64,000 nucleotides of DNA. It comes from a virus. Lineage: Duplodnaviria > Caudoviricetes. The notes beneath the pieces were generated by a model. That model worked only from the letters and a program-made list of their open reading frames with translations. It did no database searches and was not told the origin of the DNA. The stretch is taken from IMG/VR virus record IMGVR_UViG_3300012984_000010; one strand, written 5' to 3'. Shown here piece after piece: positions 3,644-31,575 of this stretch (within the stretch, counting starts at the first letter, position 1; every line of letters starts with the position of its first letter). The position numbers were made by a program, and so were the translations under genes.

Positions 3644-4051
3644 TCACGCGAGCACCAGGTCAGGAACCTTGGCGATTTGGAGCTCGTAATGAGCCGCCAT
3701 GCCGACGGTTACCACGATGAGCAAGTGGTCCTTCATCCGTTGGACGATGGGCAGCTTGTCGTAGTCAATCATTTGAGGGTTGGTGAGAGGACCTGCATCC
3801 TTGTCGTCATTCTTGACAGGACCCCACACGTATCCTTGGTCAATCTTACCTTGCAGCCAGCGATCGTGCTCTCCCCGAGGGCTGTAATTGCCGGCGAGGA
3901 CGGATTTCACCATCGCCACCGTGCTGTCCCGTTGCCACTGCTGAGCATCGTCCCACTCCTTGATGGAGTGGTCACCGTGCATCTTGCAGTAGGTTACCAC
4001 TGTGTTGTGAGCTGCCCTGGCGCATTTTTCGATCTTCTCTTCATTTTTCAC
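3644..4051 (-). CDS. RyR-domain protein
   Basis: H..W...K..QGYVWGPVKND...P.MIDYDKLP..QRMKD pattern. Confidence 0.75.
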   Translation of the reverse strand: MKNEEKIEKCARAAHNTVVTYCKMHGDHSIKEWDDAQQWQRDSTVAMVKSVLAGNYSPRGEHDRWLQGKIDQGYVWGPVKNDDKDAGPLTNPQMIDYDKLPIVQRMKDHLLIVVTVGMAAHYELQIAKVPDLVLA

Positions 4052-4780: not shown

Positions 4781-5833
4781 TCAAGGTAACGGTCTTGGTT
4801 CCCAACCTACCAGTTGACGTTCACAGGTCTTCAACATGAACTCCAGATTTGACAACAGGGCTTCGGTCTGACCTATTGCCAGTTTCAGGACCTTTTCCCA
4901 ATTAGTGTCACCAGGCGAGTAAGCTTTACCTCGCTGATCGTAGACCACCAATACTTGACCCGATTTCAAGTCTTTGAGGTGGTCCTCCTGATTCGCGATT
5001 TTCTTTTTCAAGTCCGAGACAAAAGCGTCAGCCCCCTCACGAGAAAGCTCAAACGGTGGCCAACCTTGGCCGAAGCAGTTGCCATAGATGGTTCCTGTGC
5101 CAGGTCGCTTGTAACCATGAAGCACCATCCCTGGTCTGGATTTGTCGTGCCCGTGATTACTCCGAGGAACTAGTTTGAAACCACCGAAGCAACATGGGCA
5201 GGTGCCCATATTTTCGGTCATTCTATTCTTCAGGTTCTCCTTGACCTTACGAGCCTTCTCAACCTCTAAAGGCTCCACTCCTAGCTTCTCGTCGACCTGA
5301 GACAGATAGGGTGTCTCAGTCCTAAGCCACTTGATCAGCTCCCCTTGAGGGTAGGATCTGAGGAAAGCATCGTGATCTAGAGTTGTCTGATAGACCTTAT
5401 GGTTGGGAGCTGTGATCCGCACACCAGGAACAGCTTGCCAAGCGAAAGCTTGAAAGTAGGGCTTCCCACTAGGATTCTCAAGGATGGGGCCAATATCCTG
5501 ATAGTATGTTTTGTACTTCTGTAGATTGGTTGGGAGAGAGGTGTGTTCATCAGCCTTGGCTTTCTCCCACATAGCCTCTACGGTCGCCTTAGAGTCAGCC
5601 GAATAGGTTTTCTTTTCTGGTTTGCCGGCATCTTCCCAATGCTCTGGCCGCAGAGTCAGGACCTCTTCGAGCTTGTACCCTCCCAGGTAATCCATAACCT
5701 GAACTAATTCAGGCATTTTCATACCGCTTGAATTACCTTTGCGGATCTTGAGCAGCAAGGCCTGCATCTTTTCCGGCTTCATGGGCCTAGAGGCAGCGTA
5801 CCTGAGGGCTACTCTTGTGGCTTGTTCCGACAT
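4781..5833 (-). CDS. Hypothetical protein with CxxC-HGY-C motif, paralog of 43649-44476
   Basis: GTCPCC...LHGYKRPGTG...GNC; N-terminal RVALRY. Confidence 0.7.
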   Translation of the reverse strand: MSEQATRVALRYAASRPMKPEKMQALLLKIRKGNSSGMKMPELVQVMDYLGGYKLEEVLTLRPEHWEDAGKPEKKTYSADSKATVEAMWEKAKADEHTSLPTNLQKYKTYYQDIGPILENPSGKPYFQAFAWQAVPGVRITAPNHKVYQTTLDHDAFLRSYPQGELIKWLRTETPYLSQVDEKLGVEPLEVEKARKVKENLKNRMTENMGTCPCCFGGFKLVPRSNHGHDKSRPGMVLHGYKRPGTGTIYGNCFGQGWPPFELSREGADAFVSDLKKKIANQEDHLKDLKSGQVLVVYDQRGKAYSPGDTNWEKVLKLAIGQTEALLSNLEFMLKTCERQLVGWEPRPLP

Positions 5834-21008: not shown

Positions 21009-22631
21009 TCAACCTTTCAAACACGCTTGAGCCAGCACTTCTTGCTTGCGTGCTCGGCATTGATTGATCAGACGTTGAGTTTCAGCAGAGAAGACTGGGG
21101 GTTCTCTTCTGATGCTACCTTGGTTCGGCGGCAGCACGTCGTCCGATTCCTTGTCGGTGAGAAGGTAGTAGGAATCGAGGGAGATCTGTTCTCCCTCTTG
21201 AGCGATGATGCTGGCCGGCATCCGATGAGCATCCACACCAGGGCGGATGCGCCAAATCACCGGCATGCCTGGAATTGATTCTTTGGCACTCTTGGGTTCA
21301 TCTCCGAACTTCATTGTTGAGAGACTACCACTCTGAGAAAGCTTCCACACCGCCGCCACATCGTCCCGTGAGAAAGTGGGCCACTCTGGCTTGGTGAAGT
21401 AGCCCCCATATCCGTACGCTTGTCGATCCATCGGCCATCGAACCTGCTTACGCAATTCTTCGAATTCGACCGTCAGTTCCTTGTTCCAACCGCTCTCAAG
21501 AGCTAGACGAGGCTCCAACCCTTTCTCCCTCGCCAACGCGACCGTGTAGGTGTAATGACTGCGGACGTTGGCTTCCGAGTCGAACCGGATCCCCGCATCA
21601 CGTCCGGGGTCTTCCGCGATCACCCGCAACGCACTGGGAACGCCAGACATGAGGGTACTGGTGGTGTCGGGCAGGTAGAAGAGAAAGCCTGGAAACCGGT
21701 CTTTCATCGCCGTATAGGCGGCGTAATCGTCGAGATTGAACCGCTGTGGGTGTTCGTGACCCATCGTTCCGACTGGGATCATGTTGAGTTTTTGAGCCAA
21801 CTCAACGTTAGAGGTACGCAGCACACCCGCGTCCTTGATGGCCTTGAGCACAATCTCATGTTGCTCTGAACACGAGACTCCTCGCATTCCGACCTCGAAC
21901 AAGCGATCAGGGTTTTCCACGATACCTACCAGTTCTTTGGCACGTCGGTAAACCCACTCGTAATAAGCCTGCTCACGAACCTCGATATTGAATTGAGGTA
22001 GGAGTTTGATCTTGGATCCTAGGTCGATTGCTAGAGAATCCAGCGTTTCCAGGATGATGTCCTTTTCTCGCTGACAGGTGGCGAATCGAATACGCTCAGC
22101 CAGCTCGGCAGTCTTCCCCGCCTTGTAGAGTGTCGCGAGCTGGATTCGAAAGTTTAGCTGGAGAGCGGTAGGTTCCAACCAGCTTGAAACCGCACTAGGG
22201 CCCTTGGCGAAAAAAGCTGGCTCCCGATTGTAGAACCAGGAACCCTTCGGGACTGAACTGATGCGTAGATTGTCCTTGAGGGAGAAAGCCTTACGAAAAC
22301 CAGCACCTACCTCATAGTTGTGTTGGCTCAAGTAATCGTAATCGGTAGGATCGTTGATCACGTCAGGTAGGAGGTCTTTCACGAACTTCTTGACATCTAC
22401 CGGCATGTAGTGCCAACCATTGACCCCGCCCTTGCGGTGTGAGTAGCCGAAAGTCTCCTCGCGAAGGGCAAAGCCCGCCTCAGCCATCGAAATCTTGTAT
22501 GCGTCTGTACGTAGCAATTTGGTCATGACCAACATTACACCAAATAATCTGATTTTCCGGCAGGAATCTGCTCTTAAGATCCTGATCCCTATGACCGTAG
22601 GTACATGTGACGGCACTGAAATGCCGTCCAC
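21009..22631 (-). CDS. pncB: Nicotinate/nicotinamide phosphoribosyltransferase
   Basis: LRTDAYK.SM, GTMGHE, PDT, GIRFDS. Confidence 0.75.
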   Translation of the reverse strand: MDGISVPSHVPTVIGIRILRADSCRKIRLFGVMLVMTKLLRTDAYKISMAEAGFALREETFGYSHRKGGVNGWHYMPVDVKKFVKDLLPDVINDPTDYDYLSQHNYEVGAGFRKAFSLKDNLRISSVPKGSWFYNREPAFFAKGPSAVSSWLEPTALQLNFRIQLATLYKAGKTAELAERIRFATCQREKDIILETLDSLAIDLGSKIKLLPQFNIEVREQAYYEWVYRRAKELVGIVENPDRLFEVGMRGVSCSEQHEIVLKAIKDAGVLRTSNVELAQKLNMIPVGTMGHEHPQRFNLDDYAAYTAMKDRFPGFLFYLPDTTSTLMSGVPSALRVIAEDPGRDAGIRFDSEANVRSHYTYTVALAREKGLEPRLALESGWNKELTVEFEELRKQVRWPMDRQAYGYGGYFTKPEWPTFSRDDVAAVWKLSQSGSLSTMKFGDEPKSAKESIPGMPVIWRIRPGVDAHRMPASIIAQEGEQISLDSYYLLTDKESDDVLPPNQGSIRREPPVFSAETQRLINQCRARKQEVLAQACLKG

Positions 22632-22649
22632 AACAGAAAGAAGATACCG

Positions 22650-22862
22650 TTGTCACATAGAGTTGAATCAAATAGCGACTTTCGTAAGATACTAGACGCC
22701 GCCAAGGCTCAAGGTTGGGTGACCGAACACACCAAGAAAGGACATTGGAAGTTCATGGCTCCCAACGGCAAGGACATGGTTCACACTGCCGGTTCGCCCA
22801 GCGACATGCGGGCCATCCGGAACTTCACGGCCCGTTTGCGTCAACGAGGATTGCGGATATGA
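22650..22862 (+). CDS. HicA-like dsRBD-fold protein
   Basis: GW...TKKGHWKF..P.G...V....PSD.RA..N...L...G. Confidence 0.7.
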   Translation: MSHRVESNSDFRKILDAAKAQGWVTEHTKKGHWKFMAPNGKDMVHTAGSPSDMRAIRNFTARLRQRGLRI

Positions 22863-23233
22863 AATGGGATATCGACAAGGCTTTGAAGGCCTTGGAAGAC
22901 GGCAGCCGTATCTCAGGTACGACCGTCAGCAGAATTCAGATCTCAGGAGAAGACCACGCTCTAAAGTTCGGGATCCGTTTCACGGCGGCCGAACGGGAGA
23001 GAGGGTGCGCTTTCGTGTGGTGTTTGGCGTTAGGCATCATACAGCTACCGAAGCTGTTCTTCTACGACCGTGAGATCCACGGCGCATACATCAAGGCCAA
23101 GAAGGCTATCAAGAATCTCTCCGACGATGAACTGCTGTACTACGCCCTCCGAAAGCCCAGGCGGAGCAACAGCTTCATGGCGGCCAAAAGCCTGAAGAAA
23201 CGAAAGCCAAAGGCTCCGTCCGCTTCGGTGTAA
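22859..23233 (+). CDS. Hypothetical protein
   Basis: ATGA overlap with HicA-like stop. Confidence 0.65.
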   Translation: MKWDIDKALKALEDGSRISGTTVSRIQISGEDHALKFGIRFTAAERERGCAFVWCLALGIIQLPKLFFYDREIHGAYIKAKKAIKNLSDDELLYYALRKPRRSNSFMAAKSLKKRKPKAPSASV

Positions 23234-23242
23234 TACCGGAGC

Positions 23243-24202
23243 ATGAGACCAGCAACGCTTACAGGATTGGCTGTGGGGGATTCATTAGGAATGCCCTTTG
23301 AGACACACCACTTCACTTCTGAGGCGTTGCTGGCTTGGGACGGAACCTTCCAGTCGGGCGCCACCAACACCATCCAGCCCAATCTTCGGCCAGGTCAGTG
23401 GACCGATGATACCAAGATGGCGTTGGCGTTGGCCAACAGCCTGATCAGCAGTGAGACCTATGACCCTATCGGGGCTACTCAACACTACATCGAGTGGTAC
23501 GACTCTAACGACCACCGAGGGATGGGTAAAGCTACCAAAGAAGCTTTAGAACGAATCATCCAAGGTCATCATTGGATGAACTCTGGTGTCAAATCACAGG
23601 GTAACGGAACGGCTATGAGGGTGGCCCCTTTGGGGTTGTTCTACCATCATAGCCCAGAGGCTGCTGCTGCTGCTGCTCGTATTGATGCCAGAATCACCCA
23701 CAACTCCCAGCTTTCAATTGAGGGTTCGGTCATTGTGGCGGTGGCGGTGGCGATTTTGGCCAGTGGTGCTCCTAAGGTGGTTGATTCTGCAGATGGGGAT
23801 CATGACTTGATTCGCCGAGTCTTGTATTACTCAGAAACCTGTGCTCTGTGGGATCGACTGGTAGACGTCAGGGAATGTGTTGAAGAACTCCCCGCAGATC
23901 CTACCGATAGACTCAAAGCTTCAATGAAAACCCTTTTGGAGATGGGGACTGGAGCACACGTATTGCAGACCGTGCCCGCCGCTTTTCTCTGCTTCCTGGC
24001 TACCAGTAGCTTTGCAGAAGCGGTCGATTTGGCGGTCCGAGTAGGCGGAGATACCGACACCACCGCCGCCATCACAGGAGCGTTGGCAGGGACGTTTTAC
24101 GGTACTGAACAGGTCAAACCCTATTTGGGTGTGTTGGAAGAAGCTGCTCTGTTGAGCCATTTGGAGAACAGGCTTTTTCTATCCGCTCCCAGAATCCCCT
24201 GA
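23243..24202 (+). CDS. ADP-ribosylglycohydrolase (DraG/ARH family)
   Basis: GDSLG, WTDDT, GNGTAMR, GGDTDT. Confidence 0.93.
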   Translation: MRPATLTGLAVGDSLGMPFETHHFTSEALLAWDGTFQSGATNTIQPNLRPGQWTDDTKMALALANSLISSETYDPIGATQHYIEWYDSNDHRGMGKATKEALERIIQGHHWMNSGVKSQGNGTAMRVAPLGLFYHHSPEAAAAAARIDARITHNSQLSIEGSVIVAVAVAILASGAPKVVDSADGDHDLIRRVLYYSETCALWDRLVDVRECVEELPADPTDRLKASMKTLLEMGTGAHVLQTVPAAFLCFLATSSFAEAVDLAVRVGGDTDTTAAITGALAGTFYGTEQVKPYLGVLEEAALLSHLENRLFLSAPRIP

Positions 24203-24230
24203 CCACGGACCTCGGTGTATAAGCTTGGAT

Positions 24231-24545
24231 ATGTCTAACACCATTCAAGAAATCAAACCCCTACACGACAACGTATTGATCCAGGTTATCGAGAGGGAGG
24301 GGGTGTCGAAAGGAGGGATTTACATTCCTCCTACCGCTAAGGATCATGAACTTTCTTGGAGAGCTTCAGTGATTGCAGTAGGTCCGGGACGTCTCCTTGA
24401 GAACGGTCGTCGGGTGGAACCTAACGTTCGTGTAGGTGAAACAGTACTGTTGGGCAAGTACATGGGTACTGAGCTGGAGATTGAAGGTATCAAGTACGTG
24501 ATAGTCAAGGAAGAACATATCCTTGGCGTCGAAGAGACTGCCTGA
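24231..24545 (+). CDS. groES: Co-chaperonin GroES
   Basis: IKPLHDNVLI...SKGGIYIP...AVGPG...V.VG..VL.GKY.G.E. Confidence 0.95.
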   Translation: MSNTIQEIKPLHDNVLIQVIEREGVSKGGIYIPPTAKDHELSWRASVIAVGPGRLLENGRRVEPNVRVGETVLLGKYMGTELEIEGIKYVIVKEEHILGVEETA

Positions 24546-25092: not shown

Positions 25093-25164
25093 GGGGGCGT
25101 AGCTCAGCGGTAGAGCAAGGGATTCTAAAACCCTAGGCCGTGGGTTCGAATCCCACTGTCCCCT
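25093..25164 (+). tRNA. Amber suppressor tRNA (CUA), short variable loop, U73
   Basis: GGGGGCG/TGTCCCC; AGGGA-TTCTAAA-ACCCT with CTA at 25125-25127; T-arm GTGGG-TTCGAAT-CCCAC. Confidence 0.9.
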
Positions 25165-25169
25165 CTCAA

Positions 25170-25260
25170 GCCTTCGTCGCTCAGCGGCCAGAGCAGCAGA
25201 TTCTAAAACTGCGTGAGTCCTCATGGATGAAGATCGTGGGTTCGAGTCCCACCGAAGGCA
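25170..25260 (+). tRNA. Amber suppressor tRNA (CUA), long variable arm, A73 (Leu-like)
   Basis: GCCTTCG/CGAAGGC-A; GCAGA-TTCTAAA-ACTGC with CTA at 25203-25205; 23-nt variable region. Confidence 0.88.
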
Positions 25261-25262
25261 CC

Positions 25263-25589
25263 CTAGGTAAGAGCCAGTGACAACCCTCTGCAAAGCTTCT
25301 TGGCAGCAGGACCCAGCAACGCAACTGCCGTGAGTTCGTTGTTTCGGTCTGGTTCATTGAACGATGCCGAGAATATGTTCCGCATCTAAGCCTTGTCCAG
25401 AAGCACTTTAAGTGTAGGTTCGTCCTCCACTACCAGAAAGGCCAGTGTGTTGGAATCGTGGTACCACTCTTTGAACGGTTCAGGGTGCTGCATACTTAGC
25501 TCTGTCAGCGCGTGAGCCGACTGAACAGCTTGTTGTCCAGGCGACAAGTCAACCCTGGTGATCAGGTACAGTTTAGAGGAGGGTTTCAT
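25263..25589 (-). CDS. PTH2-like peptidyl-tRNA hydrolase with in-frame TAG at 25386-25388
   Basis: KLYLITRVDLSPGQQAVQSAHA ... LLDKA*MRNIFSASFNEPDRNNELTAVALLGP; the domain continues past TAG to give 108 codons. Confidence 0.8.
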
Positions 25590-26040
25590 TTTCCCAAAAG
25601 GATTCGTGCTCTTGGAACGAATCCTCCAATCGTCTGAGGGCCTCTTGCTTCTGTTTGGTGAAATGGTCGGACACCATCTGGATGATGTTCGGAGGTACGC
25701 CGTCCATCTCCAGAGTTTCTTTCCAATGAGCCTTAGGGGTATCCCCATAGGTGCTCTTTTCTCCAACCACGTAACTGCTTTTGCTGCTGTATACTCGACC
25801 TAGATCAGTATCGAGGTACAGATAGAGCCTCAACATGGCGTCAGAGCAGCAGCCACAGCTGTGACGGAGTTCCGCCTCGGTCGCCACCACAGCCGATGAG
25901 ATCAACCTTTCCCATCTGTGTCGATCCGTAACTTTGGCCAGATCTGGGAAACGACTTCTAAGCTGTTCAAGGCGAGCTGCTTCGGCTAGGCTGGCCGTCG
26001 CCTCTTTCTTCAGTCGTTCGATCTCTTTTTCGACGCTCAC
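25573..26040 (-). CDS. Hypothetical protein (amber-gated operon)
   Basis: 155-aa ORF, HSCGCC motif, GTGA-coupled. Confidence 0.7.
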   Translation of the reverse strand: MSVEKEIERLKKEATASLAEAARLEQLRSRFPDLAKVTDRHRWERLISSAVVATEAELRHSCGCCSDAMLRLYLYLDTDLGRVYSSKSSYVVGEKSTYGDTPKAHWKETLEMDGVPPNIIQMVSDHFTKQKQEALRRLEDSFQEHESFWENETLL

Positions 26041-26945
26041 GAGACACCTCCCAAAAGAGCCTTGGCGTACTGTAGGGCGTCACGAATCTTCTCCACATAA
26101 TGTCCTGAGAAGATCTCACTACGATGGGTAACCCCATCCTTGTAGATCACCAGCTTGACCGGTCCGGTCTTGACCGCCCATTCAAAGTCAATCGTGTAAG
26201 GCTGGGTAGGAGTCTTGGAAGCAATCCGCTTGCAGAATCGGCTCTCTTCTAGCTTGAGTTCTGGGGCCCACCCTTCGTAGGTCCAACCAATACCATGGTT
26301 CTTCTCAGGGTTGAAGATAGGGTCTTTCAGCCCTTCAACGAAGGCTAGGTAGAGAGGGTCGTTGTTGAAGAAGTCGGTCCACCAAAGGTCAGACTCTCGG
26401 CGACGATTGGCCCTATTGCGTGTCTCCTCAGCCGAGACCCATAGCTTATCGGCCTCATCGTCTGAGATCATGTCGTACAGCAAATCCTCTTCATTGAAGT
26501 GAATCCGCCCCCACCACGCCACCACCTCATTGTTCGAGAAGTCTAGTGTGGGTCTTTCTTTGGCTCGCTTGTAGTAGCCCTCTGAGTCTTTCTGGTGAGC
26601 ACCCAAAGCTCTCTTCCCACTCTCATCGTAATCGCAATGAGTCCCTACGCTCTCCTGGAAGTCTCGATGACGTCGATACAGTTCTCCGATCTGTTCATCT
26701 TCGAGCCGAACGATTGCGAAGTTGCGGCCAGTCAGATGTCCCTCTTCAACATCTGAGCTCAAACCTACTACTCCGTCCAACACGCATTCGAACCAATGTT
26801 CGTGACCTCCCATCAGGATGACACCAGACAATACCCCATCCCAATAACTGCAGTGCCACAACATCTTGAAATCGACGTCTCGCTTCTTGTGGGGCAGGTC
26901 TCGGATGAGACGGAAGTCGGACTTTGCCTCAGCCAGAGTGGTCAT
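26037..26945 (-). CDS. Hypothetical protein (amber-gated operon)
   Basis: 302-aa coupled ORF. Confidence 0.7.
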   Translation of the reverse strand: MTTLAEAKSDFRLIRDLPHKKRDVDFKMLWHCSYWDGVLSGVILMGGHEHWFECVLDGVVGLSSDVEEGHLTGRNFAIVRLEDEQIGELYRRHRDFQESVGTHCDYDESGKRALGAHQKDSEGYYKRAKERPTLDFSNNEVVAWWGRIHFNEEDLLYDMISDDEADKLWVSAEETRNRANRRRESDLWWTDFFNNDPLYLAFVEGLKDPIFNPEKNHGIGWTYEGWAPELKLEESRFCKRIASKTPTQPYTIDFEWAVKTGPVKLVIYKDGVTHRSEIFSGHYVEKIRDALQYAKALLGGVS

Positions 26946-27433
26946 CAGGCCAACACCCTAGACAGGAGGGATGAGAACCAGTTCTTCGGCTTGACCGGTA
27001 CCACAACCATTGGGGCATCTGGTGGTTGTGAAGTACCCTTCCCATACATCAATTCGTAAATCTGCAAAGGATCCCAAGTGTTGATGACCTGACGCTCTTC
27101 CTCAGTCCAGGTTTTGGCGTCCTCATTGATGCCAAAAGCTCTGTAGATGTGCCACGAAACTGTCTTTGGATACGGAGGTTCTGAACACTTAGCTTCCAAA
27201 TCCTGGTATGGGCGACCACGAAGAATAGCGTAGGCAATGTAGAGGTGTCGGAGCGAGTCTTGTGTACCGTTCACGTAGTCTAGACGTAGCTGATAGCGCT
27301 CTGGACCCGTATCAGCACTGGACGTGACACAGTTCTTCAGCTCATGCAGCTTGGTCCTAAGAACCGGCTTTTCAGCCGAAAGGTCTTTGATCTTCTGTCG
27401 AATGTGGGCAATCGCGGCTTTATGGGAATTCAT
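26945..27433 (-). CDS. Hypothetical protein, first gene after amber/RAPP leader
   Basis: 162 aa, RHLYIAYAILRGRPY..LE; SD AGGAG lies in a hairpin. Confidence 0.75.
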   Translation of the reverse strand: MNSHKAAIAHIRQKIKDLSAEKPVLRTKLHELKNCVTSSADTGPERYQLRLDYVNGTQDSLRHLYIAYAILRGRPYQDLEAKCSEPPYPKTVSWHIYRAFGINEDAKTWTEEERQVINTWDPLQIYELMYGKGTSQPPDAPMVVVPVKPKNWFSSLLSRVLA

Positions 27434-27526
27434 AATCGTCTCCTGTAGATAGCTAGTACACTGAATGGGGGCAGTGTACGCTACAGGAGGGGCTCGCGAC
27501 TTCGGACAATTCAGCTACAAGAACAT
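27434..27526 (-). promoter_or_regulatory. Translational attenuator leader: ATG TTC TTG TAG ... RAPP plus SD-sequestering hairpin
   Basis: Readthrough gives MFL*LNCPKSRAPPVAYTAPIQCTSYLQETI in frame with the 27433 ATG; stems CTCCTGTAG/CTACAGGAG and GTACACTG/CAGTGTAC. Confidence 0.75.
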
Positions 27527-27535
27527 GACCGCACC

Positions 27536-27564
27536 ATCCTACGTTCTTCCGCCCTAACTGTCAA
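27536..27564 (-). promoter_or_regulatory. Sigma70-type promoter
   Basis: TTGACA-17 nt-TAGGAT, 9 nt before the leader ATG. Confidence 0.75.
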
Positions 27565-27566
27565 GA

Positions 27567-27947
27567 TCAACGATGGTATATTTCTACAGGGATGTAGGGC
27601 GAAGCTTCCAACAGCAATTCGTGCATGTGTCGACTACCCTTCCCCAACCCTTTATCCTTGTGGAAGCACACGGCTAGGTCAAAATAGGTGCCGTCCGTGA
27701 AGGGGTGTTCGGTTTTCAGCATATGCTCGTTACGCAAGGGACCGGCCGAGGGCCAGGTTCTCCCATCTGCCTCGGCTGGGTAAGCCCTCACGATGAAACC
27801 TAGACGCTTGCCTACGTAGCCTCCGATCCGGTCAGCTCCCTGACAATCCCCGTGGATCAAAGTACTACCACCAGGCAGCCGGCCCAACACCTCTTCTATT
27901 GAGCGCTGTTCGACCCACTTTCTGGAACCAAAAATCAGTACTTTCAT
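27567..27947 (-). CDS. SLOG-family (DUF2493/YspA-like) protein
   Basis: VLIFGSR.W...LIHGDC.GAD..G...AGPLRN..ML. Confidence 0.8.
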   Translation of the reverse strand: MKVLIFGSRKWVEQRSIEEVLGRLPGGSTLIHGDCQGADRIGGYVGKRLGFIVRAYPAEADGRTWPSAGPLRNEHMLKTEHPFTDGTYFDLAVCFHKDKGLGKGSRHMHELLLEASPYIPVEIYHR

Positions 27948-27988
27948 CTAGTTACCTTACACCAATCACAACTGGTGTAAGGGTCAGC

Positions 27989-28228
27989 ATGCTCCCCAAC
28001 ACTCCCAAAACACGTGACCTCATCAACAATTTCACACAGGACTTGATTGTGCTCGTCCGAGAAGCCTTGCTGGAAGAGGTTCACCTTCGTCTAAAAGAAC
28101 GGAATGCTCAGCCAGCTCTGTCGACGGGCAAACCCCTCAAGAGGTTGGCAGCCAAGCCGACTGTGAAGGCTCTCAAGCCAAAGGCTCGAATCAAAGCTGT
28201 TCCAACCCCCATGTTGATGGCCGTCTAG
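27989..28228 (+). CDS. Hypothetical Lys-rich protein
   Basis: Preceded by GGTGTA motif; followed by hairpin terminator. Confidence 0.55.
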   Translation: MLPNTPKTRDLINNFTQDLIVLVREALLEEVHLRLKERNAQPALSTGKPLKRLAAKPTVKALKPKARIKAVPTPMLMAV

Positions 28229-28293
28229 GGAACAATATTCCACGTGGAAAGGCTCTGTCGGGATCACCCTGCAGAGCCTTTCACATTTTGTTC

Positions 28294-28321
28294 TTAACTT
28301 CCCCCAAACTCTTCCGTTCTA
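28294..28321 (+). promoter_or_regulatory. Class I promoter-like motif (representative copy)
   Basis: TTAA-N15-TCCGTTCTA, 6 nt before ATG 28328. Confidence 0.75.
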
Positions 28322-28327
28322 TCCTGC

Positions 28328-28672
28328 ATGAACCAAATAACCGTCCCCTCGAAGCAAATCGCTTGGTTGACCCGACCGGCCTTCACTAGCCGGAAGCGTG
28401 AAGCAGTTCTGCACGTTGCCAATCAGGTGACGTTCCACAACACGTTCTGGGACGGCGGTAGCAAGAATACCTACAAGGCTGTCAAGATCGAAGACGGCAA
28501 GGTTGCTTCACTCGAAACTGGTTCGTCTCCTTGGACGGCTATTGCAGAAGGTAAGACCGTTACCCTGGAACCTGGGGTCGTGATTGTCGAAGAATCTATC
28601 TTCTGCGGTAAAGTTATGAAACTGCACGTGTACATTCACCCCTCAAACGTCGCTCCTTTGCTCAACCCCTGA
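28328..28672 (+). CDS. Hypothetical protein
   Basis: 114-aa ORF after class I motif. Confidence 0.7.
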   Translation: MNQITVPSKQIAWLTRPAFTSRKREAVLHVANQVTFHNTFWDGGSKNTYKAVKIEDGKVASLETGSSPWTAIAEGKTVTLEPGVVIVEESIFCGKVMKLHVYIHPSNVAPLLNP

Positions 28673-28680
28673 GGTTCCTC

Positions 28681-29346
28681 ATGGATTCTACCAATCACCA
28701 ACACCCGTCTTACGGGCTCGTCTCCTTCAGCCGTTGTTCAGGCAACCCGAAGTTGTTCGGCTCCTCGCTGGACACACATTACAACTACATCAAACTTTCG
28801 ATCAAACACGGTGTGTTGTGTCGATCTGATTCGGGAGATTCCTTCACCGGTCCCTCTGATGGGGATATCCTCGAAGTCCTGTTGTCGTTGTCCCAGTACG
28901 CCGAGCTGCTGACGACCATGAATTGCGGTCTGGGCACTCCTTGCACCATCTCACGGATCAATCGTCAGAAGATCGAACCGCCACCGGACGATCTGATGTC
29001 TGAGACAGACAACATCAAGGCCGAGTTCAGGAAACGTATCCAGGGCATGGTGGCAAGCCTCGCCAAACACCAGGCCGACTTCAAAGAGACGATGTCCAAG
29101 AAGGCCCTTACAAAGGCTGATCGGGACGCTGCCTCGAAAATCCTGGATCGTGCCATTCAAGAGATCGCCGACAACTCCCCACACTTTCTGGCGATGTTCG
29201 AGGAAGCAGCCGGCAAAGTAGTCGCTACCGCGAAAGCGGAAGTGGCCACTTTCATGGCCCTCACCACCAAAGAACGTCCGCCAACGCTGGAGGATATCGA
29301 AAATGTTACCCCAGCCTTGCCAGCCAGCACCGAAACTGGTGTATGA
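28681..29346 (+). CDS. Hypothetical protein
   Basis: 221-aa ORF, HPSYG...LFGS. Confidence 0.7.
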   Translation: MDSTNHQHPSYGLVSFSRCSGNPKLFGSSLDTHYNYIKLSIKHGVLCRSDSGDSFTGPSDGDILEVLLSLSQYAELLTTMNCGLGTPCTISRINRQKIEPPPDDLMSETDNIKAEFRKRIQGMVASLAKHQADFKETMSKKALTKADRDAASKILDRAIQEIADNSPHFLAMFEEAAGKVVATAKAEVATFMALTTKERPPTLEDIENVTPALPASTETGV

Positions 29347-29468
29347 CATACCCAGCTAGGGTTGTTGACTGGCCCACCCCTCAACCACAACAACCCTAGC
29401 TAACTCTAAGTCCTCTGGCGTGGCGCTTCCTTCCCAAAGCTGATACACGTCAGAGGCAATTATTTACC

Positions 29469-29933
29469 ATGGACGAGATAGCATTCACCAGCGTCAGATT
29501 ACCGTTCGGTTGGTTGGGCAACATGTCGCCCTTCCCGCTCGAATATGACGGCCTTCTCTGGAGGACCTCAGAAGCGTTGTTCCAAGCCAGAAGGTTCGGC
29601 AACGAGCTGAGTATTCGTGAGCTGATCCGTGCTGAGAAATCGCCAATGGCAGCCAAGATGGTGGCAAAGAAGTACCACCACTTGATGCAGCTCAAACCGT
29701 GTAGCCCAGAAGATGTGTCGATGATGTCAGAGGTTCTGAACCTCAAGCTGACCCAACACCCGAATCTCCAAGACCAACTTAAGGCAACCTCAGGTCGCCA
29801 GATCATAGAAGATTGTACCAAGCGTCAGCATGGTACTGGTTTGTTTTGGGGAGCTGCCCGACAGGCAGATGGCAGCTGGGAAGGCGCCAACACCCTGGGA
29901 CATCTCTGGATGCGCATTAGAGACACATTATAA
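29469..29933 (+). CDS. NADAR (YbiA-like) family protein
   Basis: GWLGNMSPFP, TSEALFQA.RF, KLTQHP.L, FWG, G.N.LG.LWM.IR. Confidence 0.9.
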   Translation: MDEIAFTSVRLPFGWLGNMSPFPLEYDGLLWRTSEALFQARRFGNELSIRELIRAEKSPMAAKMVAKKYHHLMQLKPCSPEDVSMMSEVLNLKLTQHPNLQDQLKATSGRQIIEDCTKRQHGTGLFWGAARQADGSWEGANTLGHLWMRIRDTL

Positions 29934-30053
29934 GTGGTGGTTCTGAATCAGTCACCAAGGAAACCGGTGACTGTGGTTGGGCTTCGGCTATACCTTGGAG
30001 GCTGATTTAGAACTACCACTTAACTTCGCTGGTGTTGGTCCGTTATACCCAGT

Positions 30054-30650
30054 ATGAACCGAGCCGAATTCTTCGCCAAACTGGACCCTTTTTTCTCTCC
30101 TACCAGTCTGCTACAGATTCAGGTGGCCTACACGTTCGCCAAGTTCGGCCATCGGGCTCAGGTGCGGAAAGAGAAGGATGAGTCTGGCAAGCCCCTTCGG
30201 TACTTTGAGCACGTTCGACGGGTAGCGGTCAACGTTATCGACGATGCCAGGATCCCCCTCCCAGAATTGGTGGTGGCGGGACTGATCCACGATGGTATCG
30301 AGGATACACGAGACCTGACCCCAGAGATGATCCAACACCTCTTTGGGGAAGATGTGGTGCGGATCGTCAAGACTCTGTCCAAAGTGCCGGAACAAGGTTA
30401 TTTGGAACGATTCTATCTGTCGACTGATTGGCGTGCCTACGTCGTCAAAGCGTGTGACCGTCTCGACAATCTCAGGTCTTTGGGCGCCGCCTCTGCGGAA
30501 TTTCAGGCAAAACAGATCAAAGAGACTCGGGAGAAGTACTATCCGCTGTTCGACCGGATGGTTGAGCTTACCCCTCCAGAGTACCTAGCTAGGGTTCGAA
30601 ACCTTCGAGATCTGGTGATCAAGCAGACGGAAGGCCACCGTATTCCTTAG
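30054..30650 (+). CDS. RelA/SpoT-type HD hydrolase (Mesh1/SAH-like)
   Basis: FA.FGH..Q.RK...Y.EH..RVA, LIHD.IED, VKACDRLDNLR. Confidence 0.85.
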   Translation: MNRAEFFAKLDPFFSPTSLLQIQVAYTFAKFGHRAQVRKEKDESGKPLRYFEHVRRVAVNVIDDARIPLPELVVAGLIHDGIEDTRDLTPEMIQHLFGEDVVRIVKTLSKVPEQGYLERFYLSTDWRAYVVKACDRLDNLRSLGAASAEFQAKQIKETREKYYPLFDRMVELTPPEYLARVRNLRDLVIKQTEGHRIP

Positions 30651-31258
30651 CTGTTTCTACCTTCGTAGGACTTAGCTACCGAGAACCTGGGGGATGCGTA
30701 TCCGGTCCCATAGACCCAGATCCAGGCCCCGTGCGTGCGGACACCGTAGCTTCCGACCTCGACACCATTCAGCTCCAGATCAAAACCCATGTCCATAGCT
30801 ATGGGGGTCACTTCTAAGGTAGATGTCCCAGCTATCGATCCAAAGAACGTTTTGGCGTCATTGATCATCTGCTCCAATGCGGAACAGGCCCAAAGGCCTT
30901 TCTTACCACCACGGCTGAGAGCGATGTCTCGGTGAATCTCTATCAACTCGACCTTCATGAAGGCTCGTTGATGTTCCTGATCTAGGCGATCGTCCCTGAA
31001 GCAGGGGGTGACCGCCACATACTTGCCGTCCAGCTTCTGCTCGTCCACAACCGTCATCTGGATGAACGATTGCTCGGCCGAACCAACCAGATCTCCAAAG
31101 ACGCAGGAAATTGGAACGTGGTCCTCAGGGAGAGTTTTCAGTATCGCCTCGCGACTGACCAGCCAAGGCACCTCCAAGTATCTGTATCCAGCCTTGGTGT
31201 AGAATGAGACCGCCTCGGCAATGTGTTGCCAGTCGATCGGAAACACCTCCCTAGTCAC
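30647..31258 (-). CDS. Stand-alone class II aminoacyl-tRNA synthetase catalytic-core-like protein
   Basis: GSAEQ, PCFRDD (motif 2), FMKVEL, EVGSYG, GTG...PR (motif 3); no anticodon-binding domain. Confidence 0.75.
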   Translation of the reverse strand: MTREVFPIDWQHIAEAVSFYTKAGYRYLEVPWLVSREAILKTLPEDHVPISCVFGDLVGSAEQSFIQMTVVDEQKLDGKYVAVTPCFRDDRLDQEHQRAFMKVELIEIHRDIALSRGGKKGLWACSALEQMINDAKTFFGSIAGTSTLEVTPIAMDMGFDLELNGVEVGSYGVRTHGAWIWVYGTGYASPRFSVAKSYEGRNS

Positions 31259-31575
31259 TTCCGATCTCCTGATTCGAAGGCCCGCCTGGTGGCGGCCGCC
31301 ATCTTGGCCAACTCTCCCATATCGGTCCCCAACTGTTCGGCCACTCCTTCCAGAGCTCCGTACAGGTCCGCCAGCTCGCACAGGGCTAGGATACTATTCC
31401 GCTGTTCGAGCGCCTCCTCTAGCTCGTCCAATTCCTCGCGAATCTTCGAGGTCTGCCCATACGTGCCTCGGACGGTGATTGGGCGTAGATGGTAGCCTGG
31501 TTTGGGTTGGTCGGGGAACAACGGAACTGATGAAGCCAACTCATCAGTTCCGACAGGGAGGGTTCTGAACGACAT
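31255..31575 (-). CDS. MazG-like NTP pyrophosphohydrolase
   Basis: KIREELDEL....ELADLYG. Confidence 0.7.
   Translation of the reverse strand: MSFRTLPVGTDELASSVPLFPDQPKPGYHLRPITVRGTYGQTSKIREELDELEEALEQRNSILALCELADLYGALEGVAEQLGTDMGELAKMAAATRRAFESGDRK

What the first reader, a model, noticed from the sequence alone, without database searches (positions are those of the whole stretch)
25093..27564. Candidate new system: an operon gated by amber readthrough, facing its own suppressor tRNAs
Seen in sequence: (i) a perfect TTGACA-17-TAGGAT promoter; (ii) a leader with TAG at codon 4, then a RAPP motif and a hairpin over the SD of the next gene; (iii) three coupled hypothetical genes; (iv) a PTH2-like gene broken by an in-frame TAG; (v) two convergent tRNAs with CUA anticodons. 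Established: RAPP/RAGP-type motifs (ApdA, ApcA, ApdP, SecM) stall bacterial ribosomes, and PTH2 recycles peptidyl-tRNA. Inference: UAG readthrough acts as a double switch that turns on the operon and completes PTH2. The module could sense suppressor-tRNA charging versus RF1 activity, or act as a timing or anti-defence device. The rest of the window uses the standard code, so this is local gating rather than genome recoding. I know of no described system with this architecture.
Basis: partly seen in the sequence, partly recalled or inferred. Interest (0 to 1): 0.95.

Follow-up and report, generated by a model that had tools for sequence, protein, structure and literature searches.

The report
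Stop-codon-gated ribosome-arrest switch in phage
A huge soil phage carries a small operon that can probably be translated only when the phage's own stop-codon-reading tRNAs read a UAG codon, a design that recurs in dozens of related phages and has not been described as a natural gene switch.

Summary
Comparison with about 100 related phage loci supports its reading.

The window comes from a roughly 475-kb soil phage. On the minus strand it carries, in order:
- a TTGACA promoter
- a start codon placed where transcription should begin
- the leader M-F-L-UAG-(6 codons)-R-A-P-P
- a hairpin that buries the ribosome-binding site of the next gene
- four overlapping genes, the last a PTH2-like hydrolase with an in-frame UAG
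- two CUA-anticodon tRNAs

Evidence from relatives:
- 35 distinct leaders keep this plan.
- The R-[A/G]-P-P codons vary only at third positions, apart from the Ala/Gly change, so the motif is translated.
- In 30 of 30 leaders with a tRNA in the locus, the gate codon matches the tRNA: UAG-CUA 19, UAA-UUA 9, UGA-UCA 1, UUA-UAA 1.
- The PTH2-like gene carries an in-frame stop in 11 loci at about 8 positions, always of the matching type where that can be checked.

UAG is otherwise an ordinary stop here, so this is local gating, not recoding. The physiological role is unresolved and nothing has been tested at the bench. This scan reached the same switch earlier on four other genomes. Seven literature searches found no published description.

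The parts
27536..27564 (-). Sigma-70-type promoter: TTGACA, 17 nt, TAGGAT
   Evidence: In relatives a TTGACA box lies 29-32 nt before the leader's start codon in at least 12 of 16 leaders (four of these were re-read by eye, in one case with a GTG start).
27515..27526 (-). Short ORF ATG-TTC-TTG followed by the gate codon TAG (27517-27515). The ATG begins 10 nt after the -10 box, so the mRNA is probably leaderless.
   Evidence: The gate codon matches the tRNA anticodon in 30 of 30 related leaders.
27485..27514 (-). Six codons after the gate (L-N-C-P-K-S), then the arrest core R-A-P-P (27496-27485)
   Evidence: Among relatives the motif codons CGN G[C/G]N CCN CCN vary only at third positions. RAPP and RGPP are the strongest known arrest cores (PMC12992588).
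27440..27489 (-). Two-tier hairpin. The 5' arm (27489-27481) overlaps the Pro-Pro codons. The 3' arm (27448-27440) contains the ribosome-binding site GGAG of the next gene.
   Evidence: -23.0 kcal/mol, z about -4. In relatives each 5' arm fits its own ribosome-binding-site region better than those of other leaders.
26945..27433 (-). First regulated gene, 162 aa. Conserved family of unknown function, all-helical in the model.
26037..26945 (-). 302-aa protein made of two domains of unknown function. Its start overlaps the previous stop (ATGA).
25573..26040 (-). 155-aa protein of unknown function. Its start overlaps the previous stop (GTGA). A homologue lies in L005.
25263..25589 (-). PTH2-like hydrolase gene with an in-frame TAG at 25388-25386 and a terminal TAG at 25265-25263
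25093..25165 (+). tRNA with anticodon CUA, 73 nt, short variable loop, U73
25170..25262 (+). tRNA with anticodon CUA, 93 nt, long variable arm, A73. Its 3' end abuts the stop codon of the PTH2-like gene.

Best explanation
The locus is a translational switch that reports whether the phage's own amber-suppressor tRNAs are decoding UAG.

Proposed mechanism:
1. Host RNA polymerase starts at the TTGACA promoter and makes an mRNA that begins at or next to the leader's ATG.
2. Ribosomes translate M-F-L and reach UAG.
3. Without a working suppressor tRNA, release factor ends translation there. The hairpin stays folded and hides the ribosome-binding site of the 162-aa gene.
4. With a charged tRNA(CUA), the ribosome reads on for six codons and stalls at R-A-P-P, with the second Pro codon in the A site.
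5. The stalled ribosome covers the 5' arm of the hairpin. This frees the ribosome-binding site, and the 162-aa gene and the coupled genes behind it are translated.
6. The last gene, a PTH2-like hydrolase, needs a second UAG read-through to be completed.

Shown here: the anatomy, its conservation, translation of the motif (codon-level conservation), co-variation of gate codon and anticodon, and recurrent gating of the PTH2-like gene.

Inferred: the stall itself, the leaderless start, which amino acids the tRNAs carry, and the purpose. My preferred purpose is that the operon is made only when, and in proportion as, stop-codon read-through is active. It would then either contain the side effects of read-through or feed back on it.
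For: Anatomy in the window.

Conservation:
- PTH2-like genes of related huge phages almost always have a stop-codon-reading tRNA within about 1 kb.
- A strict search for the whole plan gave 35 hits, all on the PTH2 strand upstream of that gene. There were none on the opposite strand in 103 loci totalling 854 kb.

The motif is translated:
- Across the first 16 distinct leaders all four CGN Arg codons and all four CCN Pro codons occur, while first and second positions are fixed apart from Ala/Gly. Of the 35 leaders only L073 uses AGA for Arg.
- No ATG, GTG or TTG lies between gate and motif in 34 of the 35 leaders. L012 has an in-frame ATG directly after its TAA.

Co-variation:
- Gate codon against anticodon: TAG-CUA 19, TAA-UUA 9, TGA-UCA 1, TTA-UAA 1, with no mismatch.
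- The PTH2 tree needs at least 2-3 independent TAG/TAA switches. L005 (TAA/UUA) and L023 (TAG/CUA) are sisters with near-identical leaders.

Geometry:
- The end of the Pro-Pro codons lies 45-62 nt (median 53) before the next start codon.
- The core of the ribosome-binding site is paired at 3 or more of 4 bases in 26 of 31 leaders, against 99 of 197 control genes.
- Leader regions are more structured than 778 control 5' regions (p = 2e-7).
- Each 5' arm pairs with its own ribosome-binding-site region at a mean of -15.8 kcal/mol, against -11.5 for other leaders' regions (permutation p = 5e-5).

Second gate: in-frame stops occur in the PTH2-like gene of 11 loci at about 8 positions. They are TAG where the tRNA is CUA, and TAA in L053/L068, where the leader gate is TAA. 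L050 also has TAA, but its fragment holds neither leader nor tRNA. The conserved residues downstream are intact.

Published work: RAPP and RGPP give the most robust arrest, tolerate varied and short N-terminal contexts, and are not relieved by EF-P (PMC12992588; PMC10951233).
Against: - There is no experimental evidence of any kind. No RNA run holds this phage.
- UAG remains a normal terminator: 8-11 of 72-82 ORFs in the window and about 26% in relatives. A strong general suppressor would therefore be costly, so suppression must be weak, timed or context-dependent.
- The PTH2-like gene's own terminator is also UAG.
- In the window and its closest relative L009 the tRNAs are convergent, not co-transcribed with the operon as in most relatives.
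- Both tRNAs have an A31-A39 mismatch, and their charging cannot be judged from sequence.
- The Pro-Pro codons also act as the anti-ribosome-binding-site sequence, so part of their conservation could be at the RNA level.
- Known RAPP leaders are released by secretion force. This peptide is only 13 residues long at the stall and has no signal sequence, so release is unexplained.
- Exceptions: L011 has the tRNA and the operon but no recognisable leader. L027 has a RAPP leader without a matching gate. More distant clades lack the leader altogether.
Confidence: 0.78

Rival explanations
1. The switch reads host release-factor activity rather than tRNA supply. Read-through at the gate rises when RF1 (or RF1/RF2) is depleted or inhibited during infection, and the phage tRNA is merely a constant partner.
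For: Read-through always reflects competition between the tRNA and the release factor, so sequence alone cannot separate the two inputs. Of the 38 gate codons, 29 are followed by C or A and only 2 by T. From general knowledge, this suggests a context tuned for weak termination.
Against: The gate codon follows the phage tRNA's anticodon through at least 2-3 independent switches, and includes a sense-codon case, TTA with anticodon UAA. This shows that the tRNA is the matched partner. It does not exclude release factor as a second input.
Confidence: 0.1
2. The element works at the RNA level only. The hairpin is a thermosensor or protein-binding operator, the short ORF always ends at UAG, and the R-A-P-P reading is a by-product of the CCUCC anti-ribosome-binding-site sequence.
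For: The Pro-Pro codons form the 5' arm that pairs with GGAG. The hairpin is strong on its own.
Against: The Arg and Ala/Gly codons are not needed for the pairing, yet they are conserved with free third positions. In several leaders the pairing sequence lies after the motif, not in it. The start codon, gate and motif are always in one frame. The gate matches the tRNA in 30 of 30 cases. The plan was found 35 times on one strand and never on the other.
Confidence: 0.06
3. Part of the genome is recoded so that UAG is read as an amino acid, as in Lak and crAss-like phages. The two UAGs are simply sense codons in a recoded block.
For: Suppressor tRNAs are the hallmark of recoded phages. Only 64 kb of a roughly 475-kb genome was visible.
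Against: In the window only the PTH2-like gene needs read-through. In the three other candidates that have domain hits, the matches lie wholly on one side of the TAG. TAG ends 11-26% of ORFs. Relatives use UAA or UGA gates with matching tRNAs. As far as I know, UAA recoding has not been reported in phages.
Confidence: 0.04
4. The PTH2-like gene is a recent pseudogene and the leader's UAG is a chance stop. The neighbouring suppressor tRNAs serve some other purpose.
For: The TAG falls in a variable column of the family. The closest homologues, at 50-60% identity, are mostly uninterrupted.
Against: Eleven loci carry an in-frame stop at about 8 positions. None has a frameshift or a second defect, and the stop is of the type read by the local tRNA or leader gate wherever that can be checked. 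All invariant residues after the TAG are kept.
Confidence: 0.02

Closest known systems
RAPP/RGPP-type regulatory arrest peptides (ApdA, ApdP, ApcA; SecM with RAGP; Streptomyces RAPP/RGPP uORFs)
   Same: A short upstream ORF ends in or contains R-[A/G]-P-P. The regulated gene lies downstream in the same orientation. Its ribosome-binding site sits in a stem-loop that a stalled ribosome would open (PMC7897499, PMC10951233, PMC12992588).
   Different: The arrest motif here lies behind an in-frame stop codon (or a rare codon) that only a phage-encoded tRNA can read, so the input is decoding of that codon. There is no signal peptide or membrane segment, and the nascent chain is only 13-25 residues long. 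The start is probably leaderless. The regulated genes are a PTH2-like operon, not Sec/YidC components.
bldA control in Streptomyces (tRNA-Leu(UAA) and TTA-containing target genes); from general knowledge
   Same: Expression of particular genes depends on one dedicated tRNA that reads a codon the cell otherwise handles poorly. The L013/L014 variant uses exactly TTA with a UAA-anticodon tRNA.
   Different: In bldA control the codon lies inside the target genes and no arrest peptide or hairpin is involved. Here the codon gates a leader and is usually a stop codon.
Stop-codon-recoded phages (Lak megaphages, crAss-like phages) with suppressor tRNAs
   Same: The phage encodes tRNAs that read a stop codon, and read-through is needed for phage genes.
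   Different: Those phages carry in-frame stops in many, mostly late, genes. Here one leader and one gene are affected, and the same codon remains a common terminator.
Synthetic feed-forward loop using a suppressor tRNA (PMC7969014)
   Same: One promoter drives both a suppressor tRNA and an amber-containing target gene, which removes leaky expression. Most relatives of this locus have the tRNA downstream in the same orientation as the gated operon.
   Different: That circuit was engineered in E. coli and has no arrest peptide. The system here is natural and adds a control step at the ribosome-binding site.
Autoregulation of release factor 2 (prfB) by an in-frame UGA (from general knowledge), and AMD1 read-through followed by arrest (PMC13025110)
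   Same: The fate of a ribosome at an in-frame stop codon sets the output. In AMD1 the ribosomes that read through then stall downstream.
   Different: prfB uses a frameshift and senses RF2. AMD1 is eukaryotic and uses near-cognate read-through. Neither involves a dedicated suppressor tRNA.

Membership tests
RAPP-like regulatory arrest-peptide leaders | R-A-P-P or R-G-P-P core in a short ORF upstream of the regulated gene, in the same orientation | tested here: met
   RAPP at 27496-27485, ending 51 nt before the next ATG. The motif is RAPP or RGPP in all 35 related leaders.
RAPP-like regulatory arrest-peptide leaders | The downstream ribosome-binding site is held in a stem-loop whose 5' arm lies within reach of the stalled ribosome | tested here: met
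RAPP-like regulatory arrest-peptide leaders | N-terminal signal peptide or membrane segment, so that secretion force releases the stall ('monitoring substrate') | tested here: not met
   The peptide is 13 residues long at the stall and has no hydrophobic segment. Related leaders are 10-25 residues long.
RAPP-like regulatory arrest-peptide leaders | Demonstrated ribosome stalling (toeprint, peptidyl-tRNA accumulation) | not testable with these tools
   Inferred only from published behaviour of RAPP/RGPP (PMC12992588).
PTH2 peptidyl-tRNA hydrolase (PF01981) | Sequence match above Pfam's gathering score, and a profile match to solved PTH2 structures | tested here: met
   27.4 bits against a cut-off of 23, spanning the TAG. 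The family profile hits 2zv3, 1wn2 and 1q7s at E-values from 9e-9 to 1.5e-5.
PTH2 peptidyl-tRNA hydrolase (PF01981) | Catalytic residues of archaeal PTH2 (the Lys in the G-K motif, and the Asp and Thr of D-A-G-x-T; recalled from memory) | tested here: inconclusive
   In the alignment to 2zv3 the phage family lacks two residues at the G-K position and has E-P-D where archaeal enzymes have D-A-G. Activity and substrate are unknown.
Amber suppressor tRNA | Cloverleaf that passes the Rfam tRNA threshold, with anticodon CUA in a 7-nt loop | tested here: met
   66.3 and 52.8 bits against a threshold of 29. The loop is UUCUAAA in both tRNAs.
Amber suppressor tRNA | The tRNA is aminoacylated and inserts an amino acid at UAG | not testable with these tools
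   Indirect support only: matching gate codons and gated PTH2-like genes.
Stop-codon-recoded phage genome | In-frame copies of the reassigned stop codon in many genes, and loss of that codon as a terminator | tested here: not met
   One interrupted gene in 64 kb. TAG ends 8-11 of 72-82 ORFs in the window and 26% in relatives. The rest of the genome was not visible.

The most novel reading that the evidence does not exclude
The module may be a self-setting read-through homeostat. In this reading the PTH2-like enzyme, alone or with the 162-aa protein, acts on the suppressor tRNA's aminoacyl or peptidyl form. Because both its translation start and, in many phages, its own reading frame depend on read-through, the phage holds stop-codon suppression at a set level, in the way RF2 sets its own level through an in-frame UGA. 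This would mean that huge phages deliberately run infected cells in a controlled state of partial read-through. It would also explain why 'orphan' suppressor tRNAs sit next to PTH2-like genes in Bxz1 and Myrna (mycobacteria), and why XacN1 (Xanthomonas) carries both, though far apart in its genome.
Probability: 0.3. Interest if true: 0.95.

Novelty: new variant of a known kind. Interest (0 to 1): 0.9.

Why it matters
Suppressor tRNAs are common in large phages whose genomes are not recoded, and their purpose has been an open question. The XacN1 authors found no target for that phage's two CUA tRNAs (PMC5852040).

This locus and its relatives provide a concrete, conserved target: a leader and a gene whose expression needs exactly the codon that the local tRNA reads.

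If the mechanism holds, it would be:
- a natural gene switch driven by stop-codon read-through
- a new sensing mode for ribosome-arrest peptides
- a ready-made, compact part for synthetic biology and genetic-code-expansion work, because it reports suppressor activity in vivo

It also links a PTH2-fold enzyme to the control of read-through. Possible counterparts in the cultured phages XacN1, Bxz1 and Myrna make it testable at the bench.

Tried and rejected
- Close relatives of the 162-aa and 302-aa proteins in IMG/VR and GenBank phages: none found by the direct searches. Relatives were reached through the PTH2-like gene instead.
- Whole-genome search: no genome is held for this window, so the other roughly 410 kb could not be checked for in-frame TAGs.
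- One alignment of all 31 leaders with a consensus fold gave no consensus structure, because the stems differ too much to align. It was replaced by single folds and the test of own against foreign arm pairing.
- Function of the 162-aa family: no hit in Pfam or PHROGs. Foldseek against PDB and AlphaFold clusters, and the ESM Atlas, gave nothing convincing. A helical-hairpin likeness to the tRNA-binding arm of SerRS (7u2b) is too generic to use.
- ESM Atlas gave nothing for the 155-aa protein.
- RNA evidence: no RNA holder is listed for this stretch. Only soil DNA contigs could be laid on it.
- A RAPP found after gp146 of Bxz1 is a GC-rich, terminator-like hairpin behind a TGA, not a leader.
- L034 (LR756500.1, 24% GC) was not analysed beyond its tRNAs and one stretch upstream of the PTH2 match.
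- The amino-acid identity of the two tRNAs could not be settled from sequence.
Full report
**What is in the window.** The window is phage-like, with about 53% G+C and 13 tRNA genes. Genes near the finding include NAD-salvage and ADP-ribose enzymes and GroES. The N-terminal fragment of its PTH2-like gene occurs on a 475,623-bp contig, so this is a huge phage. Four soil metagenome runs hold the stretch.

- TTGACA, 17 nt, TAGGAT. This is the only such site in the window, and the -10 box matches the consensus at only 4 of 6 positions.
- ATG-TTC-TTG-TAG, six codons, then R-A-P-P.
- A two-tier hairpin. Its outer 9-bp stem joins the Pro-Pro codons to the GGAG of the next gene (-23.0 kcal/mol, z about -4).
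- Four genes that overlap at their junctions.
- A PTH2-like gene whose Pfam match spans an in-frame TAG at 25388-25386.
- On the other strand, two CUA-anticodon tRNAs that score 66 and 53 bits against Rfam tRNA.

Two details should be added. The leader frame runs into the 162-aa gene without another stop. The PTH2-like gene's own terminator is also TAG.

The sequence is letter-identical in separate assemblies, and soil-run contigs show no variant, so the TAGs are real.

**Not genome recoding.** Reading TAG as sense lengthens no other credible gene in the window. In the three candidates that have domain hits (a methylase, a phosphoesterase and a 2OG oxygenase), the matches lie wholly on one side of the TAG. 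The other three candidates had no hit to judge by. TAG ends 8-11 of 72-82 long ORFs in the window and about 26% in relatives.

**Relatives.** The 162-aa protein has no close homologue in the databases. The PTH2-like protein does: 52 database hits, the window's own fragment among them, with the others 48-61% identical, nearly all of full length, and many on contigs of 200-470 kb. The window's TAG aligns with a variable column just after an invariant Ala, and all invariant residues downstream are kept.

I fetched loci around these homologues:
- 3 by exact look-up
- 24 from IMG/VR
- 75 from metagenomes

Nearly every locus long enough to show it has a tRNA that reads a stop codon within about 1 kb of the PTH2-like gene. 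Most of these tRNAs lie downstream on the same strand, with anticodon CUA, UUA or UCA. A homologue of the 162-aa protein usually opens the operon.

**The leader is conserved and translated.** Upstream of that first gene, 35 distinct leaders share one plan: start codon, 1-12 codons, a gate codon, 1-14 codons, R-[A/G]-P-P, then 45-62 nt (median 53) to the next start codon.

A strict search for the whole plan gave 35 hits on the PTH2 strand, one per locus and all upstream of PTH2. It gave none on the opposite strand across 854 kb.

The motif codons are CGN G[C/G]N CCN CCN. All four third positions vary freely, while first and second positions are fixed apart from the Ala/Gly change and one AGA Arg codon in L073. 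That is the signature of selection on the peptide. In 34 of the 35 leaders no ATG, GTG or TTG lies between gate and motif, so the motif can be reached only by reading the gate. L012 is the exception: an in-frame ATG directly follows its TAA gate.

Only RAPP and RGPP occur. A 2025 study found these two to be the most robust arrest cores. They work with varied and short N-terminal contexts and are not relieved by EF-P (PMC12992588).

Where the leader frame ends is not conserved. It runs into the gene in 8 leaders, overlaps the start codon in 8, and stops within one codon of RGPP in 3. This fits a functional end point at the motif.

**Gate and tRNA change together.** In all 30 distinct leaders whose locus also holds the tRNA, the gate codon is the one that tRNA reads:

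| Gate codon | tRNA anticodon | Leaders |
|---|---|---|
| TAG | CUA | 19 |
| TAA | UUA | 9 |
| TGA | UCA | 1 (L052) |
| TTA | UAA | 1 (L013, a 74-nt tRNA in a 62% G+C phage) |

- L005 (M-S-K-F-T-TAA, UUA) and L023 (M-S-K-Y-T-TAG, CUA) have almost the same leader and are sisters in the PTH2 tree.
- That tree needs at least 2-3 TAG/TAA switches.
- Three leaders have two TAGs. Two of those loci have two CUA tRNAs, and the third has one CUA tRNA plus a second tRNA whose anticodon ARAGORN left unresolved.
- The codon after the gate is nearly always CTN, ATN or GTN.

**Hairpin and start geometry.**
- In single folds the 5' arm begins at or just after the Pro-Pro codons, and the 3' arm holds the ribosome-binding site.
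- Leader regions are more structured than 778 control 5' regions (p = 2e-7).
- The core of the ribosome-binding site is paired at 3 or more of 4 bases in 26 of 31 leaders, against 99 of 197 controls.
- Each 5' arm pairs better with its own ribosome-binding-site region than with those of other leaders (-15.8 against -11.5 kcal/mol; 0 of 20,000 permutations reached the observed value). The stems therefore co-vary.
- In at least 12 of 16 leaders the start codon lies 29-32 nt after TTGACA, which is 6-9 nt after the -10 box. This predicts a leaderless mRNA (four of the twelve were re-read by eye, one with a GTG start).
- The phage's own abundant promoter-like motif, TTCCGTTCTAT then 4-7 nt (mostly 5) then ATG, also predicts leaderless mRNAs.

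**The second gate recurs.** The PTH2-like gene carries an in-frame stop in 11 loci at about 8 alignment positions:

| Stop | Loci |
|---|---|
| TAG | window, L009, L016, L024, L028, L042, L059, L074 (all with CUA tRNAs) |
| TAA | L050, L053, L068 |

The leader gate is TAA in L053 and L068. L050's fragment holds neither leader nor tRNA. No locus has a frameshift or a second defect. A pseudogene reading cannot explain this pattern.

**Mechanism and purpose.** The best reading is a two-step switch:
1. UAG read-through in the leader leads to a stall at R-A-P-P.
2. The stall opens the hairpin and lets ribosomes start on the operon.
3. A second UAG read-through completes the PTH2-like protein.

The stall, the leaderless start and the charging of the tRNAs are inferred. 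The purpose is open. Because most relatives have the tRNA downstream in the same orientation, and so probably on the same transcript, the design resembles a feed-forward loop (a synthetic analogue is PMC7969014). Because the output is a PTH2-fold enzyme, feedback on read-through, or clean-up after it, is plausible.

The phage family hits solved PTH2 structures (E = 9e-9) but lacks the G-K segment of archaeal enzymes, so its substrate may differ. The 162-aa family is helical and has no informative fold match.

**Novelty.** Seven literature searches found no natural system of this kind (one search returned the arrest-peptide literature). The XacN1 paper states that no target was found for that phage's two CUA tRNAs. 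This scan had already reached the same switch on four other genomes. Those are unchecked AI notes that agree with this report and are not independent proof.

New in this report:
- the recurrent gate inside the PTH2-like gene
- the TGA/UCA and TTA/UAA cases
- the leaderless geometry
- the test of own against foreign stem pairing
- leads in cultured phages

**Leads in cultured phages.** In Bxz1 and Myrna the PTH2-like gene is followed by a tRNA(CUA), directly in Bxz1 and after one other annotated tRNA in Myrna. It is preceded, 30-32 nt after a TTGACA box, by NTG-TAG-GTG. In XacN1 the PTH2-domain gene ORF364 has an in-frame ATG-AAG-TAG with a good ribosome-binding site 21 nt upstream of its annotated start.

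Noticed in passing
window, e.g. 28312, 39123, 49324, 49702, 59802, 62732, 63291: A phage-specific promoter-like motif, (c)TTAA(c/t)T, about 13 nt, then TTCCGTTCTAT, recurs at least 13 times. An ATG follows 4-7 nt (mostly 5) later, so many genes of this phage look leaderless.
   Followed up: partly
L033 (Bxz1) 4930-5733; L035 (Myrna) 4930-5534: In cluster C mycobacteriophages the PTH2-like gene (gp154, gp84) is followed by a tRNA(CUA): directly in Bxz1, where it is annotated as tRNA-OTHER, and after one other annotated tRNA in Myrna. The gene is preceded by TTGACA, then 30-32 nt later NTG-TAG-GTG in frame with it. This may be an amber gate at codon 2 in a cultured, tractable phage.
   Followed up: partly
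L112 (XacN1) 3736-3759: ORF364, whose C-terminus is the PTH2-like domain, has an in-frame ATG-AAG-TAG with an AGAGGA ribosome-binding site 21 nt upstream of its annotated ATG, which has no such site. This is a candidate target for the two CUA tRNAs of XacN1, for which the authors found none.
   Followed up: partly
L013/L014 6606-6705 and 7787-7860: In a 62% G+C phage the gate position holds the Leu codon TTA (the rarest Leu codon there, 13 of 462). The neighbouring 74-nt tRNA has anticodon UAA and lacks the long arm of true Leu tRNAs. This is a sense-codon version of the switch, seen in one lineage only.
   Followed up: partly
A3 (family of window 26948-27433 and relatives): Ten of 15 members of the 162-aa family end in Ala-Ala, for example -EEAA, -EVAA and -EQAA. 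This recalls the ssrA-type degradation tag and suggests a short-lived protein. The window's own copy ends -VLA.
   Followed up: no
L027 4308-4700: Two tRNA(UCA) genes are followed by a short ORF, M-R-T-R-A-P-P-T-R-E-G-I-K-G-TGA. This is a RAPP leader with no gate before the motif and a TGA after it, and its relation to the switch is unclear.
   Followed up: partly
L010 621-1306: Here the gated leader (M-E-H-TAG-...-RGPP) is followed by an HNH/endonuclease VII-like gene instead of the usual first gene. The HNH gene may be a mobile insertion.
   Followed up: no
window 26037-26945: The 302-aa protein consists of two separate domains (about 1-160 and 168-300). Each occurs alone or in other combinations in hundreds of uncharacterised proteins (416 hits), and neither has a Pfam family.
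   Followed up: partly
window 25093-25262: The two CUA tRNAs have unlike bodies but the same anticodon loop (UUCUAAA) and the same A31-A39 mismatch. They resemble the tandem CUA pair of XacN1 in the D and T arms.
   Followed up: partly
window 21009-24545 and 27567-31381: The switch sits among NAD and ADP-ribose genes: an NAPRTase-like gene, NAD synthetase, ADP-ribosylglycohydrolase, NADAR and a SLOG/YspA-like gene. Also nearby are GroES, an HD-domain protein and a 244-aa class II aminoacyl-tRNA-synthetase-like core without an anticodon-binding domain. ADP-ribosylglycohydrolase also lies next to the PTH2-like gene in L005 and L007.
   Followed up: partly
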